The notes beneath the pieces were generated by a model that saw nothing but the letters and a program-made list of their open reading frames with translations, had not been told where the DNA came from and ran no database searches. Source: Bacteroidota bacterium (GTDB taxonomy: Bacteria > Bacteroidota > Bacteroidia > UBA4408). Taken from it: DNA of 64,000 nt. This document shows positions 1 through 10,970 of this stretch, piece by piece. Within the stretch, counting starts at the first letter, position 1; every line of letters starts with the position of its first letter. Made by a program: the position numbers and the translations under genes. The stretch spans positions 455,564 through 519,563 of the forward strand of contig JADKCP010000003.1 in assembly GCA_016718805.1 (NCBI GenBank), read 5' to 3'.

Positions 1-900
1 GCGATGTGGGTAAGGCAGGCAAACTACTCAATTGATTATAAGAGCAAGATAATTCCACTAACGCTGCTAGCAAAGCAGGCAAAATTGTCAATTGATTAGC
101 TTGGCAATATAACTTAGTTAGCGATGCGGGTAATGCAGGCAAACTACTCAATTGATTATAAGAGCAAGATAATTCCACTAACGCTGCTGGTAAAGTAGGC
201 AAAATTGTCAATTGATTGCCATCACAGTATAAATAGGTTAAGGATGCTGGTAAATTAGGCAAAATTGTCAATTGATTATAAAAACAGAGTAATTCAGTTA
301 ATAATGATGGCAATAATGGCAAACTGTTCAATTGGTTGTATTGGCACATTAAAAGAGTTAAAGATGCAGGTAACGTAGGTAAACTGATCAATTGATTTTC
401 GCCGCATATTAATTGAGTTAACGATGCTGGCAAAACAGGCAAACTGCTCAATTGATTATCAAAACAATATAACCATGTTAGCGATGTGGGTAATGCAGGC
501 AAACTGCTCAATTGATTAGATTGGCAATATAACGTAGTCAACGATGTGGGTAATCCAGGCAAACTGCTCAATTGATTGTCATCACAATATAAATATGTTA
601 AGGATGCTGGTAAAGCAGGCAAAATTGTCAATAGATTGTCATCACAGGATAAAGATGTTAAGGATGCTGGTAATGTAGGCAAACTGTTCAATTGATTAGA
701 ACCGCAATCTAATACAGTTAATAATGCTGGTAATATAGGCAAACTAGTCAATTGATTGTATTTGCAAGAAAAAATAGTTAAAGATGCAGGCAATACAGGT
801 ATACTGCTCAATTGATTTCCAAAGCAAAATAACTGATTTAAAGATGCTGGCAAAACAGGCAAACTGCTCAATTGATTGTATGTGCAATTCAAGTAATTTA
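1..900 (-). repeat. 15 x 60-bp tandem coding repeats (LRR units) of paralog 1
   Basis: Strict 60-bp periodicity is visible directly. The core ggcaaactgCtcaattgatt is conserved and the flanking ~25 bp vary. Each unit equals 20 codons. Confidence 0.85.
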
Positions 901-1144
901 ACGATGTAAAATACTGTATCCCATTTAAAGAACTAATTGATAAATTAGATATGTTCAAACTGGATTCATTTTGTATTAAATTACAAGTTGTAATCATCGA
1001 ATCCTGCGCAGTAAAACAGCTAGGATAAAATAACTTCAGCTTATTTCTAAAATTAGCATCTGGCACCCAAAAGTTTTGAGCAAATAAATTTGTATTCACC
1101 AAAAAGAAAATCAAAAGCAAGCCAAAGTAAAATTTATGTCTCAT
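1..1144 (-). CDS. T9SS-secreted LPX-type leucine-rich-repeat protein, paralog 1 (5' part only; C-terminus lies beyond window start)
   Basis: Reverse complement of 1130-1144 encodes MRHKF..., the same signal-peptide N-terminus as the 1192..3903 ORF. Positions 1-900 are 15 consecutive 60-bp units whose reverse complement encodes the 20-aa LxxLPxLPxxLxxLxCxxNQ repeat. The ORF track omits it because it runs off the window edge. Confidence 0.6.
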   Translation of the reverse strand, partial: MRHKFYFGLLLIFFLVNTNLFAQNFWVPDANFRNKLKLFYPSCFTAQDSMITTCNLIQNESSLNISNLSISSLNGIQYFTSLNYLNCTYNQLSSLPVLPASLNQLFCFGNQLSSIPVLPASLTIFSCKYNQLTSLPILPALLTVLDCGSNQLNSLPTLPASLTSLSCDDNLLTILPALPASLTYLYCDDNQLSSLPGLPTSLTTLYCQSNQLSSLPALPTSLTWLYCFDNQLSSLPVLPASLTQLICGENQLISLPTLPASLTLLMCQYNQLNSLPLLPSLLTELLCFYNQLTILPNLPASLTYLYCDGNQLTILPTLPAALVELSCSYNQLSSLPALPASLTKLYCQANQLTILPALLAALVELSCSYNQLSSLPALPTS

Positions 1145-1156
1145 AACCGATTTTTT

Positions 1157-1184
1157 TTAATTCTTAATTCTCAATTCTCAATTC
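1157..1184 (-). repeat. heptanucleotide (TTAATTC/TCAATTC) x4 spacer repeat between paralog 2 stop and paralog 1 start
   Basis: ttaattc ttaattc tcaattc tcaattc read directly. Homologous spacers upstream of the other paralogs carry 6, 5 and 3 copies. Confidence 0.7.
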
Positions 1185-1191
1185 CCTTCCC

Positions 1192-8515: not shown

Positions 8516-8527
8516 TACCGAATTTTT

Positions 8528-8548
8528 TTAATTCTCAATTCTCAATTC
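8528..8548 (-). repeat. heptanucleotide spacer repeat, 3 units (ttaattc tcaattc tcaattc)
   Basis: Read directly between the paralog 5 stop (8556) and the paralog 4 start (8515). Confidence 0.7.
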
Positions 8549-8555
8549 CCTATCA

Positions 8556-10970
8556 TCATTCCTTCACCACCTTCTGCCCCCAGCCTTGCCCTTTCAAAAT
8601 ATAAGTCCCAGCAGGCAAATGCTGCAAGTTCCAAGTGTAAGTTGAGCTCGAAATTGTTTTTGTTTCCAGCACTTTTCCATTGGCATTTATCAATTCTATT
8701 TTTCCTAATGCACCTGCCTGTTGGTTCACAATGCGCAAAATATCTTGCACAGGGTTAGGGAAAATTTGCAATTCTGTTTCCTTCAACGCTTGCACTTGCA
8801 ATGGATTTAACACATTCACAACAATTGTATTTGTAGTTACGGCAGCATTATAATCAAAATAAATATCTGCTTTATTTTGAATTGAATCCGTAACAGTCAA
8901 TCCCGGCAAGGGCTTAATTCTAAATTTTACAAAACCGTGTGATTCCAATTCATTGGTATTTGAATCGGGAAGGAGTATATTTTTAAATATCCATTTTGCA
9001 AAGCCATTTACAATACTTAGTTCATAGTTATCCGAAGCACTAATCATGTGCATGCTGCTAACATCGAGCAAGCCTGAAAGTTTATCTAGCAGCGTTACGG
9101 TGAAAGCTGTATCTGTTCCCGTATTTTGAAAGCGTATGGTGTACTCTAAATTATCTGTTGAATTAGGCAACACACTGTCAACAGAAACCGATTTGTCATT
9201 TGGATCATAGGAACCACCAATAATAGTAATGCTTGCTGCGCTATTGTTTACCGGAGTTGTATCACCTACCCATGGCTCTATCCAAGCAAATGCTTTAGCA
9301 GTATCACCCAATACTGCATTTGCAAAAACCGAATCGTTAATTACTACATCGCCTTGTTGATAAGGAATTAAAGATGTTATGTTCCAAATTAAGGTATCGC
9401 CATTTACTGAATTTGCACTTGGTTGTGAGGTTAAATTGGATAACTGTAAAGGCTTCAAAAATTTTACTTGAACATTATACAATGTATCTGTACCTACATT
9501 TTGGTATTGAAGTTTGTAAGAAACATTAAAGCCTGGTCGTATAAAACTAAAAGATGTTAAGTTTACTTTTAAATCATTTATGTTGGGAATTGGATGCAAT
9601 CCAAAATAAATTGTATCTACTATTCCACTTGCCACATGAATGGTTTGAGGTGATGGAGTAGTTGAAGTATAGTAGTTGTTGTTTAAAGATACCTGAAAGC
9701 TAATATTTCCTGTATCGCTTGCAGCATTAAAAAATCCTGAACTATCCGGAAACACACTAGAATTGCCTGAATAATATACAGGAACCTCCAACCCATTCTC
9801 TAAGCTGTCTTTGTTTCCATTTCCGTTTGCATCAATAAATACATAGCCGAAAGTATAATTATAGTTGCAGTCGCTATTAGCAGGTGAACAAAAGGGCAGT
9901 TGTTGCGAACTGTATATGACTGAAAGTGGAAAAGTACCCTGATTAGGAATGCAGGATATTAAAGTATTAAACATTGTAATGCCCACCCAAGAAGGACTTC
10001 CCGGTATACGAGGAGCTATTTCAGGGAAGCATGTTATGGGGTTAAATGCAAAATCCAGTTTCCAAGTCCTACCTGGTATTCTTGGTAAATTGCTTAATTG
10101 ATTATTTCTGCAATATAATTCAAGCAGCAATGCTGGTAAAGCAGGCAAAGTAGTTAATTGATTATATGAACACGTCAGTGTGGTTAACGATGCAGGTAAT
10201 GCAGGCAAACTAATCAATTGGCATAGTCCGCAATCTAAAGTTATTAATAAAGCAGGTAATGTAGGTAAGCTGGTCAATTGGTTCCCACCGCAATTTAATT
10301 CTTTTATAGAATCGGATAGTATTGGCAAACTTGTCAACTGATTTTGATAGCACCATAAATAAGTTAACGAAGTAGGTAACGCTGGCAAACTGCTTAATTG
10401 ATTGTAATTACAATATAGATGCGTTAATGATGCAGGCAATACAGGTAAACTTGTCAAATGATTATTCTCGCAAGTTAAGCGGGTTAATGATGAAGGCAAA
10501 ATTGGCAAACTGATCAATTGATTCGAAGAGCAAGACAGGTAGCCTAAAGATGCTGGTAAAGCAGGCAAACTCGTTAACTGATTTTCACTGCAGTTCAGAT
10601 TGAGCAAGGATGTTGGCAAGGCAGGCAAACTGTTTAACTGATTATTGCTACAATTTATAAAAATAATTGATGCTGGCAATGTAGGTAAACTTGTTAAATG
10701 ATTAGAATAGCAAAACAAATGCTCCAAGGAAGTAAAATATTGTATACCATCTAATGAGCTAATTTGTAAAAAAGTTAGGTCTAAGCTTATTTCATTTTGT
10801 ATTTGACTGCAAATCGTAATCATTGAATCCTGAGGAGTAAAACAAGTTGGATACAATTGCTTCAGCTTTACTCTAAAATTACTATCCGGCACCCAAAAGT
10901 TTTGAGCAAATAAATTGCTATGCAGCAGCAGCAAGAATGCGATTAAACGAAGTGTAGATTTCAACCGCAT
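8556..10970 (-). CDS. T9SS-secreted LPX-type leucine-rich-repeat protein, paralog 5, intact (804 aa), most divergent copy
   Basis: Signal peptide MRLKSTLRLIAFLLLLHSNLFAQ followed by the same NFWVPD start. Eleven 60-bp/20-aa LRR units lie at ~10080-10740. It shares the middle domain, the DPNDK motif and the T9SS CTD ...GTYILKGQGWGQKVVKE. Confidence 0.85.
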   Translation of the reverse strand: MRLKSTLRLIAFLLLLHSNLFAQNFWVPDSNFRVKLKQLYPTCFTPQDSMITICSQIQNEISLDLTFLQISSLDGIQYFTSLEHLFCYSNHLTSLPTLPASIIFINCSNNQLNSLPALPTSLLNLNCSENQLTSLPALPASLGYLSCSSNQLISLPILPSSLTRLTCENNHLTSLPVLPASLTHLYCNYNQLSSLPALPTSLTYLWCYQNQLTSLPILSDSIKELNCGGNQLTSLPTLPALLITLDCGLCQLISLPALPASLTTLTCSYNQLTTLPALPALLLELYCRNNQLSNLPRIPGRTWKLDFAFNPITCFPEIAPRIPGSPSWVGITMFNTLISCIPNQGTFPLSVIYSSQQLPFCSPANSDCNYNYTFGYVFIDANGNGNKDSLENGLEVPVYYSGNSSVFPDSSGFFNAASDTGNISFQVSLNNNYYTSTTPSPQTIHVASGIVDTIYFGLHPIPNINDLKVNLTSFSFIRPGFNVSYKLQYQNVGTDTLYNVQVKFLKPLQLSNLTSQPSANSVNGDTLIWNITSLIPYQQGDVVINDSVFANAVLGDTAKAFAWIEPWVGDTTPVNNSAASITIIGGSYDPNDKSVSVDSVLPNSTDNLEYTIRFQNTGTDTAFTVTLLDKLSGLLDVSSMHMISASDNYELSIVNGFAKWIFKNILLPDSNTNELESHGFVKFRIKPLPGLTVTDSIQNKADIYFDYNAAVTTNTIVVNVLNPLQVQALKETELQIFPNPVQDILRIVNQQAGALGKIELINANGKVLETKTISSSTYTWNLQHLPAGTYILKGQGWGQKVVKE

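What the first reader, a model, noticed from the sequence alone, without database searches (positions are those of the whole stretch)
1..10970. Tandem array of five paralogous T9SS-secreted YopM/IpaH-class (LPX) leucine-rich-repeat genes with an expression-site-plus-cassettes look
Five head-to-tail minus-strand copies lie directly downstream of rpoD. All share an identical signal peptide (M[RK]HKFYFGLLLIFF..LFAQNFWVPD), a ~450-aa middle/C-terminal module and a type-A T9SS sorting tail. They differ in LRR number: at least 15, about 16, about 8, about 6 and 11. The 20-aa unit LxxLPxLPxxLxxLxCxxNQ is the 'bacterial' LRR class otherwise known from type III secretion effectors (YopM, IpaH, SspH, SlrP). 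Here it is fused to a T9SS tail, and every repeat carries a Cys at the position normally occupied by Val. Two copies are intact. One has a single homopolymer frameshift. One is decayed. One is cut by the window edge. The array therefore looks like a family under diversifying turnover. It could be a variable secreted or surface adhesin, or an effector-like system aimed at a eukaryotic or other partner. Decayed copies may act as silent donor cassettes.
Basis: partly seen in the sequence, partly recalled or inferred. Interest (0 to 1): 0.75.

Follow-up and report, generated by a model that had tools for sequence, protein, structure and literature searches.

The report
Tandem T9SS leucine-rich-repeat surface protein genes

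Summary
Five co-oriented minus-strand paralogs lie downstream of rpoD. Each has a signal peptide, 20-residue YopM/IpaH-type LRRs with Cys at core position 6 (46 of 50 units), a ~425-aa stalk and a type-A T9SS tail.

Corrections:
- Copy A has a different signal peptide.
- The array does not end at the window edge. A 99.7%-identical MAG shows 11 copies between rpoD and gap.
- All lesions of "decayed" copy B are unique to this assembly.

An AlphaFold model (pLDDT 90.6) gives an LRR solenoid, three Ig-like sandwiches and the CTD. Two of the sandwiches are DUF11/CLIPPER and DUF7619, which are published isopeptide stalk domains. This is a fibrillar-adhesin layout.

Variability sits on the five concave-face positions. 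Copies are mosaics produced by gene conversion.

The heads of A and B/C are 98-99% identical to a sister species whose rpoD and gap are saturated at synonymous sites. That implies recent lateral transfer of heads.

The "expression site plus silent cassettes" reading is not supported. Every copy is a full gene, and A is stable across five assemblies. There is no NEL domain, so these are not IpaH-like effectors.

The family has more than 2,000 database members. The closest described system is the F. psychrophilum tandem LRR locus.

The parts
11161..12024 (-). rpoD (287-aa sigma-70), the conserved upstream anchor of the array
   Evidence: ORF. The same gene precedes the array in L005, L006 and L010.
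11110..11141 (-). Intrinsic terminator of rpoD: a 15-bp hairpin followed by a T-run
   Evidence: RNA fold -21.7 kcal/mol, z = -7.2. Inverted repeat I2.
11006..11013 (-). TAGTTTTG, a match to the Bacteroidota -7 promoter element TAnnTTTG, 43 nt upstream of copy A's ATG. No such motif precedes copies B-E.
   Evidence: Motif scan. The same TAGTTTTGATAAA box precedes copy J in the MAG. This is a motif match only. No expression data exist.
8556..10970 (-). Copy A, intact, 804 aa. It has its own signal peptide, 11 LRRs, the stalk and the CTD.
   Evidence: AlphaFold model with pLDDT 90.6.
9795..10895 (-). Head tract of copy A (codons ~26-392). It is 98.8% identical to the first copy of a sister species whose flanking genes are ~85% identical.
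   Evidence: Sliding identity. BLAST. dS is 0.021 here, against 1.34 for rpoD and 1.82 for gap.
8516..8555 (-). A-B spacer, made of GAATTGA/GAATTAA heptamers
   Evidence: The same spacer type lies between most copies in both species.
6313..8515 (-). Copy B, disrupted in this assembly. The lesions are an 84-nt in-frame deletion at ~8198/8199, a TAA at 7839-7841, and indel clusters at 7740-7752, 7696-7697 and 7284-7293.
   Evidence: All lesions are unique to the window when compared with the MAG's B and with both C copies.
6259..6312 (-). B-C spacer: 5.4 copies of the heptamer
3965..6258 (-). Copy C, 9 LRRs, with a single 1-nt deletion (T5 to T4 at 4733-4736). It is a mosaic. The 5' 1.2 kb is B-like, with a 357-nt exact match. 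The stalk segment 4416-~4990 is D-like, with a 321-nt exact match.
   Evidence: The frameshift is shared by the MAG.
3904..3964 (-). C-D heptamer spacer
1192..3903 (-). Copy D, intact, 903 aa, 16 LRRs
1145..1191 (-). D-E heptamer spacer
1..1144 (-). Copy E: the 5' part only, 381 codons, at least 14.5 LRRs. It runs off the window. In the MAG the array continues with F-K.

Best explanation
**What the proteins are.** The genes encode a repertoire of cell-surface binding proteins built like fibrillar adhesins.

**Export and anchoring (inferred from domain content).**
1. Each pre-protein is exported by Sec. Cleavage is predicted after LFA|Q.
2. It folds in the periplasm.
3. Its type-A C-terminal domain is recognised by the type IX secretion system.
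4. By analogy with characterised T9SS cargo, it is then probably tethered to the outer membrane at its C-terminus.

**Stalk and head.**
- Three Ig-like beta-sandwiches form a constant stalk. They are a CnaB/SdrD_B-like domain, DUF11/CLIPPER and DUF7619.
- DUF7619 carries a conserved Lys-Asp-Asn isopeptide triad.
- The stalk holds an N-terminal solenoid of 9-16 twenty-residue LRRs away from the cell.
- Ligand contact is made by the concave beta-sheet face of the solenoid. Its five x positions are hypervariable and rich in Tyr, Asn, Asp, Ser and Glu.
- The scaffold positions, including a stacked Cys at core position 6, are fixed.

**Expression (inferred from motifs only).** The paralogs are probably co-expressed from one or two long transcription units rather than one at a time.

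**How diversity arises.** It comes from ordinary homologous recombination acting on full-length genes:
- duplication and loss;
- gene conversion between neighbours;
- in-frame fusion;
- occasional pseudogenisation;
- replacement of whole heads, including across species. The conserved FAQNFWVPD-coding sequence and the post-cap stalk sequence serve as homology anchors.

**What is shown and what is not.** Shown: domain content, the model, the variability pattern, the mosaics and the cross-species identity. Inferred: surface anchoring, co-transcription and adhesion. The ligand is unknown.
For: **Domains and fold.**
- All domains score above the curated cut-offs.
- The LRRs match YopM, SspH2 and IpaH by sequence and by fold.
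- The repeat fits the published N-subtype definition, LxxLxLxxNxL plus xxLPxLPxx (PMC5976695).
- The AlphaFold model has pLDDT 90.6. It shows LRR strands every 20 residues, three sandwiches at 372-473, 482-583 and 592-720, and the CTD at 735-803.
- The stalk resembles integrin legs and the C-domains of streptococcal AgI/II adhesins.

**Stalk domains in the literature.** DUF11/CLIPPER and DUF7619 are described as isopeptide stalk domains of fibrillar adhesins (PMC12617251). K593, D629 and N699 are invariant in 86 homologues, with the published spacing.

**Where variation sits.**
- Scaffold positions have entropy below 0.7 bits. Positions 13, 14, 16, 18 and 19 have 2.7-3.6 bits.
- In the A versus G2 paralog pair, omega is 1.55 at the variable positions and 0.27 at the scaffold positions (Fisher p = 0.004).

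**Recombination.**
- Copy C is a mosaic.
- Gene G is a fusion of two copies.
- Copy number is 11, 7 or 4 between the same flanking genes.
- Head tracts are 98-99% identical between species whose rpoD and gap have dS 1.3-1.8.

**Promoter evidence.** A promoter-like box occurs only before A and J.

**Precedent.** In F. psychrophilum several arrayed LRR paralogs are found together in a T9SS-dependent exoproteome (PMC5682007). Its locus shows the same architecture and the same recombination signatures (PMC10392669).

**Context.** The window holds other cargo with Por_Secre_tail domains.
Against: - There are no expression, localisation or binding data for any member of this family.
- T9SS type-A cargo can be released rather than anchored.
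- T9SS machinery genes were not seen, because they lie outside the window.
- The promoter inference rests on one 8-nt motif. Internal promoters that do not fit the consensus cannot be excluded.
- omega > 1 rests on about 30 substitutions. Relaxed constraint would give a similar contrast.
- Some structural differences between assemblies may be assembly or polishing errors. The 4-copy array is a short-read contig, and the MAG's extra frameshifts fall in homopolymers.
Confidence: 0.65

Rival explanations
1. Antigenic or phase variation by an expression site plus silent cassettes. In this model only copy A, behind the promoter, is expressed. Downstream copies, including the decayed ones, donate segments to it by unidirectional gene conversion, as in pilE/pilS, vlsE or msp2.
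For: - A TAnnTTTG box occurs only upstream of A, and of J.
- Some copies are pseudogenes.
- Gene-conversion tracts exist between copies.
Against: - All copies are complete genes with an ATG, a signal peptide and a CTD. Silent cassettes lack these.
- A is the most divergent and least mosaic copy. Its longest exact match to any other window copy is 55 nt.
- A's head is 100% identical in a second assembly, 99.8% in a third, and 98.8% in another species. An expression site should be the most variable locus.
- The conversion that is seen is between C and D and between B and C, not into A.
- No inverted repeats flank the promoter.
- In the analogous F. psychrophilum locus several paralogs are secreted at once.
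Confidence: 0.05
2. Soluble secreted effectors aimed at a eukaryotic host or prey, working like YopM, IpaH or SspH: the LRR binds a host protein.
For: The LRRs are of the class otherwise best known from T3SS effectors. T9SS type-A cargo can be released into the medium.
Against: - No NEL E3-ligase domain, nor any other catalytic domain, was found.
- NCBIfam scores are 170-300 bits against cut-offs above 1,100, and they cover only the LRR part.
- T9SS delivers to the surface or the medium, not into a target cytosol.
- About 350 residues of isopeptide-type Ig-like stalk make sense for surface display, not for an injected effector.
- Family members are widespread in environmental Bacteroidota.
Confidence: 0.1
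3. The array is shaped mainly by phage pressure. The LRR proteins would be phage receptors or decoys. Copy-number change, pseudogenisation and head replacement would then be escape or counter-escape events. This overlaps with the adhesin reading.
For: - In F. psychrophilum, LRR loci differed between phage-challenged clones and their parent strain, and phage receptor use has been suggested (PMC10392669, citing Castillo 2015).
- There is rapid restructuring here between close lineages.
- Nearly identical heads have spread laterally.
Against: There is no phage, prophage or defence gene in or beside the array in the window. There is no direct evidence here. Adhesin repertoires show the same dynamics without phage involvement.
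Confidence: 0.15
4. Assembly artefact: duplicated or collapsed repeats create an apparent array and apparent pseudogenes.
For: - B's lesions are unique to this assembly.
- The MAG's extra frameshifts fall in homopolymer runs.
- The 4-copy version is a k141 short-read contig whose copies share exact repeats longer than 141 nt.
Against: - The same order A-B-C-D-E is found at 99.6-99.8% identity in an independent MAG.
- A third assembly confirms the distal half of the array.
- A sister species has a homologous array at the same locus.
- The paralogs are 57-91% identical overall, so they are not collapsible duplicates.
Confidence: 0.03

Closest known systems
Flavobacterium psychrophilum tandem LRR cell-surface protein locus (Duchaud 2007, as described in PMC10392669, PMC8400371 and PMC5682007)
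   Same: - A co-oriented tandem array of paralogs, up to 19-23 there and 11 here, lying between conserved flanking genes.
- Each protein has a signal peptide, a variable number of LRRs and a T9SS type-A CTD.
- Hypervariable positions sit on one face of the solenoid.
- Gene fragments, mosaics and recombination signatures are present.
- Copy number and content differ between close strains.
- Several paralogs are secreted together in a T9SS-dependent way.
   Different: - The LRR unit there is ~22 residues, with 2-14 units. Here it is the 20-residue xxLPxLPxx 'bacterial' class with Cys at core position 6, and 9-16 units.
- Here a ~350-aa three-domain stalk (SdrD_B-like, CLIPPER, DUF7619) lies between head and CTD. 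Whether the F. psychrophilum proteins have such a stalk was not tested.
- The organism here is an uncultured Bacteroidota MAG lineage, not a fish pathogen.
- Cross-species sharing of heads has not been reported there, as far as I found.
YopM / IpaH / SspH / SlrP LRR domains (T3SS effectors)
   Same: They share the LRR class: 20 residues, HCS LxxLx(L/V)xxNxL plus VS xxLPxLPxx. They are the best sequence and fold matches.
   Different: - There is no NEL ligase domain and no T3SS context.
- The proteins here have a Sec signal peptide and a T9SS CTD.
- Cys replaces Val/Leu at core position 6.
- The LRR is fused to an Ig-like stalk.
Listeria internalins, especially InlJ, and Porphyromonas gingivalis InlJ
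   Same: - A surface-anchored LRR head sits on Ig-like or repeat stalk domains with a C-terminal anchor.
- They form a multigene family with variable LRR number.
- Listeria InlJ has a core Cys ladder (Bublitz 2008, cited in PMC5915736).
- P. gingivalis InlJ is a surface LRR adhesin that binds Candida Als3.
   Different: - Listeria InlJ has a 21-residue repeat and an LPXTG/sortase anchor.
- Those genes are dispersed rather than in one array.
- They are not top sequence hits here.
Fibrillar adhesins with CLIPPER/DUF7619 isopeptide stalks (PMC12617251)
   Same: The layout is an adhesive head, a stalk of CnaA-like domains with a Lys-Asp-Asn triad, and a sorting signal. DUF7619 is reported as frequent in Gram-negative bacteria.
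   Different: The stalk here is short, with three single domains rather than long tandem runs. The head is an LRR solenoid.

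Membership tests
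'Bacterial' LRR class, N-subtype (YopM/IpaH type) | 20-residue unit with HCS LxxLxLxxNxL and VS xxLPxLPxx (PMC5976695) | tested here: met
   The consensus of 50 units is L-T-Y-L-Y-C-Y-Y-N-Q-L / T-S-L-P-A-L-P-A-S, with a strict 20-aa period. Core position 6 is Cys instead of Leu/Val in 46 of 50 units.
'Bacterial' LRR class, N-subtype (YopM/IpaH type) | Closest solved structures are YopM, SspH and IpaH LRR domains | tested here: met
   phmmer against PDB: 4ow2 at 3e-71, 3g06 at 5e-51. Foldseek: 3g06, 4ow2 and 1g9u are the top hits.
NEL-type E3 ligase effectors (IpaH/SspH/SlrP) | C-terminal NEL ubiquitin-ligase domain | tested here: not met
   There is no NEL hit in Pfam. NCBIfam SspH2 and SlrP scores are 99-300 bits against cut-offs of 1113-1243, and they cover LRR positions only.
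NEL-type E3 ligase effectors (IpaH/SspH/SlrP) | Type III secretion context or N-terminal T3SS signal | tested here: not met
   The proteins have a classical Sec signal peptide and a T9SS CTD instead. The window contains no T3SS genes.
T9SS type-A cargo | C-terminal Por_Secre_tail / TIGR04183 domain above the curated threshold | tested here: met
   PF18962 scores 41-42.5 bits against a cut-off of 27. TIGR04183 scores 38 bits against a cut-off of 23. This holds in A, B, C and D. The modelled CTD beta-sandwich spans 735-803.
T9SS type-A cargo | N-terminal Sec signal peptide | tested here: met
   Each copy has a hydrophobic h-region followed by LFA|Q, read directly from the sequence. No dedicated predictor was run.
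T9SS type-A cargo | The genome encodes T9SS machinery, and export depends on it | not testable with these tools
   No machinery genes lie in the 64-kb window. Three other proteins with Por_Secre_tail domains are present.
Fibrillar adhesin with isopeptide stalk (CLIPPER/DUF7619) | Pfam DUF11 and DUF7619 domains above threshold, lying between head and anchor | tested here: met
   DUF7619 scores 152-163 bits against a cut-off of 27. DUF11 scores 34-42 bits against 24.6. The model shows beta-sandwiches at those positions.
Fibrillar adhesin with isopeptide stalk (CLIPPER/DUF7619) | Conserved Lys-Asp-Asn isopeptide triad | tested here: met
   K593, D629 and N699 are invariant in 86 homologues. Their spacing is +36/+106, against +38/+107 in the published example. 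This concerns DUF7619 only. No conserved Lys was seen in the DUF11 domain. Bond formation itself was not tested.
Fibrillar adhesin with isopeptide stalk (CLIPPER/DUF7619) | Adhesive function of the head | not testable with these tools
   This is inferred from the LRR fold and the hypervariable concave face.
Expression-site / silent-cassette antigenic variation systems | Donor cassettes are promoterless partial genes lacking a start codon and terminal regions | tested here: not met
   All copies have an ATG, a signal peptide, a full stalk and a CTD.
Expression-site / silent-cassette antigenic variation systems | The expressed copy is the variable, mosaic one | tested here: not met
   A's head is 100%, 99.8% and 98.8% identical in three other genomes. 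Its longest exact match to other window copies is 55 nt.
F. psychrophilum-type tandem T9SS LRR locus | Co-oriented tandem paralogs of the form SP-LRRn-CTD, with variable n, between conserved flanks | tested here: met
   compared with PMC10392669.
F. psychrophilum-type tandem T9SS LRR locus | Hypervariable residues on one face, recombination signatures, and gene fragments | tested here: met
F. psychrophilum-type tandem T9SS LRR locus | Sequence homology of the proteins to the F. psychrophilum LRR proteins beyond the generic LRR and CTD | not tested
The repeat length differs (~22 versus 20 residues).

The most novel reading that the evidence does not exclude
The LRR heads behave as laterally exchangeable modules. 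A limited pool of ready-made binding heads is moved between genes, and between species, by homologous recombination. The recombination uses two conserved anchor sequences: the FAQNFWVPD-coding junction and the post-cap stalk. Co-occurring Bacteroidota would then share a communal, shuffled repertoire of surface specificities mounted on a constant isopeptide stalk. The driving force could be phage pressure or partner-cell recognition. This would be a bacterial, population-level analogue of cassette-assembled LRR receptors.
Probability: 0.3. Interest if true: 0.6.

Novelty: new member of a known kind. Interest (0 to 1): 0.38.

Why it matters
T9SS-anchored LRR proteins are among the commonest uncharacterised surface proteins of environmental Bacteroidota, and no ligand is known for this sub-family.

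This locus offers a compact natural experiment. It has the same stalk and anchor throughout, eleven different heads, measurable concentration of change on the binding face, and heads that have crossed a species boundary almost unchanged.

If the heads prove to be adhesins or phage receptors, arrays like this would help explain how floc- and biofilm-forming Bacteroidota diversify partner recognition. They would also provide a stable 20-residue LRR scaffold with a Cys ladder for engineering.

The locus does not open a new category. The organisational principle is already documented in F. psychrophilum.

Tried and rejected
**Uninformative scans.**
- The sigma-70 promoter scan found 57 sites against 48.5 expected, and its consensus does not apply to Bacteroidota. 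The terminator scan in the same call missed the obvious rpoD terminator, which I confirmed by folding.
- The genome-contig scan with copy D returned only distant LRR proteins from Treponema, Thermoguttaceae and Christensenellaceae. It did not return the source species, so it gave no taxonomy.
- Rfam on the whole window found only one tRNA and no rRNA for classification.

**Failed look-ups.** P0010, P0122 and P0001 were not on record. The third same-species MAG (650-kb contig) therefore could not be used to adjudicate the states of B and C.

**Technical miss.** Megablast with a 95% identity filter missed the high-identity head tracts, because the HSPs extended into the divergent stalk. I replaced it with exact-match and sliding-window analyses.

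**Partial result.** I tested whether clustered SNP patches between two MAGs match other paralogs exactly. Only 2 of 6 patches did. This supports ectopic conversion but is weak.

**Ideas rejected.**
- Invertible promoter: no flanking inverted repeats.
- Slipped-strand phase variation at the heptamer spacers: repeat numbers in the four window spacers are identical between the window and the 99.7% MAG.
- LRR-number polymorphism between near-identical strains: none, apart from the 84-nt deletion in B.

**Artefacts.** Long + strand ORFs inside the LRR regions (2712-3098 and 3243-3518) come from the repeat composition.

Full report
**1. What is in the sequence**

Positions 1-10970 hold five co-oriented minus-strand units directly downstream of rpoD (11161-12024).

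| Copy | Coordinates | State |
|---|---|---|
| A | 8556-10970 | 804 aa, intact |
| B | 6313-8515 | broken |
| C | 3965-6258 | one frameshift |
| D | 1192-3903 | 903 aa, intact |
| E | 1-1144 | runs off the window |

- rpoD ends in a strong intrinsic terminator (z = -7.2).
- 43 nt before A's ATG lies TAGTTTTG, a match to the Bacteroidota -7 element TAnnTTTG.
- No such motif lies within several hundred bases upstream of B-E.
- The gaps between copies are only 40-61 nt. They consist of GAATTGA/GAATTAA heptamers.
- B-E share the signal peptide M[RK]HKFYFGLLLIFF..NLFAQ. A has a different one, MRLKSTLRLIAFLLLLHSNLFAQ.

**2. Domain content and fold**

- Pfam finds LRR_4, DUF11, DUF7619 and Por_Secre_tail above the curated cut-offs. 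NCBIfam finds TIGR04183, the type-A sorting domain.
- The best NCBIfam LRR matches are SspH2 and SlrP, but only over their LRR parts and far below the equivalog cut-offs. No NEL domain is present.
- Against PDB sequences the best hits are YopM (3e-71), SspH2, SspH1 and IpaH. All are confined to residues ~52-330.
- The 50 clean repeat units give the consensus QLTSLPALPASLTYLYCYYN. This is LxxLxCxxNxL plus xxLPxLPxx, the published N-subtype of the "bacterial" LRR class. Cys occupies core position 6 in 46 of 50 units.
- A core Cys ladder has a precedent in Listeria InlJ (reference cited in PMC5915736).
- In an 86-sequence family alignment the Cys is conserved across the whole family. It is a family trait, not a peculiarity of this locus.

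An AlphaFold model of A, built on that alignment, has mean pLDDT 90.6. It shows:
- a beta-strand every 20 residues from 62 to 306;
- a Cys-rich cap, with C314, C340, C361 and C368 invariant;
- three beta-sandwiches at 372-473, 482-583 (DUF11) and 592-720 (DUF7619);
- a short low-confidence linker;
- the CTD sandwich at 735-803.

Foldseek against the PDB puts SspH2, YopM and IpaH first. For the stalk it returns integrin legs and the isopeptide-containing C-domains of streptococcal AgI/II adhesins.

A 2025 survey describes DUF11 (renamed CLIPPER) and DUF7619 as CnaA-like intramolecular-isopeptide domains that form the stalks of fibrillar adhesins (PMC12617251). The Lys-Asp-Asn triad it lists for DUF7619 corresponds, by spacing, to K593, D629 and N699 here. 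All three are invariant in the 86 homologues.

**3. The array is larger than the window and is real**

- The window matches a MAG contig (GCA_016721255.1) at 99.6-99.8% over 13 kb, in the same order.
- That contig continues the array to eleven copies. The order is A, B, C, D, E, F (824 aa), G (1484 aa), H (783), I, J (752), K (803). DUF4256, OmdA, a glyoxalase gene and gap follow.
- A second MAG (GCA_016717585.1) confirms the distal half at 99.7% identity, with I intact at 863 aa.
- G is an in-frame fusion of two copies. The first lacks its CTD and the second lacks its signal peptide.
- J has its own longer upstream region carrying the same TAGTTTTGATAAA box as A. The array could therefore be two transcription units, A-I and J-K. 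This is a motif-level inference only.
- Copy A's 90% cluster is present in five assemblies.
- A sister species (GCA_963853145.1, rpoD 84.8% identical) has seven copies between the same flanks.
- A short-read contig of the same species (rpoD 99.1% identical) shows only four copies: A, a K-type gene, a mosaic and a novel head. That contig comes from a k141 assembly, and the copies share exact repeats longer than 141 nt. It may therefore be collapsed.

**4. How decayed are the "decayed" copies?**

- C's only lesion is a T5-to-T4 deletion (4733-4736). It lies inside a tract otherwise identical to D, and the MAG shares it. It is probably real.
- B's lesions are an 84-nt deletion, one TAA and four indel clusters. 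All are unique to the window. The MAG's B and both C copies carry the intact state at every one of these sites.
- The MAG's B has a single A-run frameshift that the window lacks.
- The MAG's extra frameshifts in C are all in homopolymer runs. They look like read errors.
- Most of the eleven copies are intact. The picture is a working gene family with occasional casualties, not a bank of silent cassettes.

**5. Evolutionary dynamics**

*Variation on the binding face.*
- Shannon entropy is below 0.7 bits at the ten scaffold positions.
- It is 2.7-3.6 bits at positions 13, 14, 16, 18 and 19. These are the x positions of LxxLxCxxN on the concave sheet, and they are rich in Y, N, D, S and E.
- For the closest paralogous heads, A and the second half of G (92.5% nt identity), omega is 1.55 at those five positions and 0.27 at the scaffold positions. 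The counts are 25.5 nonsynonymous to 4.5 synonymous against 10 to 11 (Fisher p = 0.004).

*Gene conversion.*
- C is B-like (97-100%) from its start through ~500 nt of the stalk. It is then 98-100% D-like for ~500-600 nt, with exact matches of 357 and 321 nt.
- Between the two distal MAG assemblies, differences cluster in patches. Two of the six patches match another paralog exactly.

*Lateral transfer of heads.*
- The window and the sister species are saturated at synonymous sites in the flanking genes: rpoD dS 1.34, gap dS 1.82.
- Codons 26-392 of A have dS 0.021 and 98.8% nt identity, with sharp borders.
- The borders fall just after the signal-peptide junction and ~80 codons after the LRR cap.
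- Beyond the 3' border, A's stalk has dS ~1 and 62-75% identity.
- The B/C head is likewise 98.3% identical over 940 nt to the sister's copy d, with exact matches of 396 and 306 nt. There it sits behind a different signal peptide.
- Selection on protein sequence cannot suppress synonymous change 60-fold. Recent recombinational transfer of heads between lineages is the only reasonable reading.
- Assembly chimerism is unlikely, because the flanks of the tracts are too divergent for mis-joining.

**6. Interpretation**

- The best-supported model is a co-expressed repertoire of T9SS-displayed fibrillar adhesins with exchangeable LRR heads. The Best explanation section sets out which steps are shown and which are inferred.
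- The expression-site/cassette idea fails its defining tests.
- The T3SS-effector analogy is limited to the repeat class.
- The fusion of LPX-type LRRs to a T9SS tail is not rare. More than 2,158 database proteins match, most with the same Pfam architecture. They come from Chitinophagales, Flavobacteriales, Ferruginibacter and unclassified Bacteroidota, and their lengths tend to differ by multiples of 20 residues.
- An isolate genome (GCA_900112255.1) carries at least four clustered members.

**7. Comparison with what is known**

The closest described system is the F. psychrophilum LRR locus.
- It has up to 19-23 tandem genes, each with a signal peptide, 2-14 LRRs of ~22 residues and a T9SS signal.
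- It shows hypervariable positions on one face, gene fragments and recombination signatures.
- It differs from strain to strain, with changes reported after phage challenge (PMC10392669; PMC8400371).
- Several paralogs were detected together in a T9SS-dependent exoproteome (PMC5682007).

The present locus follows the same principle. It differs in repeat class, in having an added isopeptide-type stalk, and in showing cross-species sharing of heads. I therefore rate it a new member of a known kind, with moderate interest.

**8. Limits**

- There are no expression, localisation or binding data.
- The organism is named only "Bacteroidetes/Bacteroidota bacterium" in the records.
- The promoter inference rests on a single motif.
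- Some differences between assemblies may be technical.

Noticed in passing
window 8516-8555, 6259-6312, 3904-3964, 1145-1191 (minus strand): The inter-copy spacers are built of 3-6 GAATTGA/GAATTAA heptamers followed by an A-run and TCGGTT before the ATG. The same spacer type separates most copies in the full 11-copy array and in the sister species. The heptamers place stop codons in all three frames. Repeat numbers do not differ between the window and the 99.7%-identical MAG, so there is no sign of slipped-strand switching. The function is unknown. An unstructured A/T-rich re-initiation region is one possibility.
   Followed up: partly
L006 18089-22543 (= L008 2979-7433), outside the window: Copy G (1484 aa) is an in-frame fusion of two family members. 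The first is a complete head plus stalk without a CTD. It is joined at '...NPTYY|WVPD...' to a second head plus stalk plus CTD without a signal peptide. The second head is the closest paralog of copy A (92.5% nt identity). The predicted product is a double-headed protein with one anchor.
   Followed up: partly
window 9795-10895 versus L005 10076-11176; window copies B/C heads versus L005 ~17054-17994: The heads of A and B/C are 98-99% identical to a sister species whose rpoD and gap have dS 1.3-1.8. The tract borders coincide with conserved sequences: the FAQNFWVPD junction and the post-cap stalk. This indicates recent inter-species transfer of head modules.
   Followed up: yes
window 6313-8515 (copy B): Every disabling lesion of B is absent from the B copy of a 99.7%-identical MAG and from both C copies. 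Either B decayed very recently in this strain, or this stretch of the source assembly is of poor quality.
   Followed up: partly
window 12484-12557 (+): A tRNA gene (Rfam 58.6 bits) overlaps the 5' end of the mechanically listed ORF 12521-14287 (amidohydrolase). The true start of that gene must lie further downstream.
   Followed up: no
window 14612-17353 (+), 36426-37838 (-), 47710-49212 (-): Three further predicted T9SS cargo proteins lie in the window: two Sortilin/BNR proteins with Por_Secre_tail and one RCC1-repeat protein with Por_Secre_tail. The organism therefore invests heavily in T9SS surface proteins.
   Followed up: no
L009 ~15144-15300 (sister species, downstream of last copy g) and L009 9211-9870: After the last copy in the sister species there is a heptamer spacer plus the first ~25 codons of another copy (signal peptide only). 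This is a deletion scar. A small ORF plus a PIN-domain gene (toxin-antitoxin-like) is inserted inside that array.
   Followed up: no
window 2712-3098 and 3243-3518 (+): Long open frames lie on the strand opposite to the LRR-coding regions. They are by-products of the 60-nt repeat composition, not genes.
   Followed up: no
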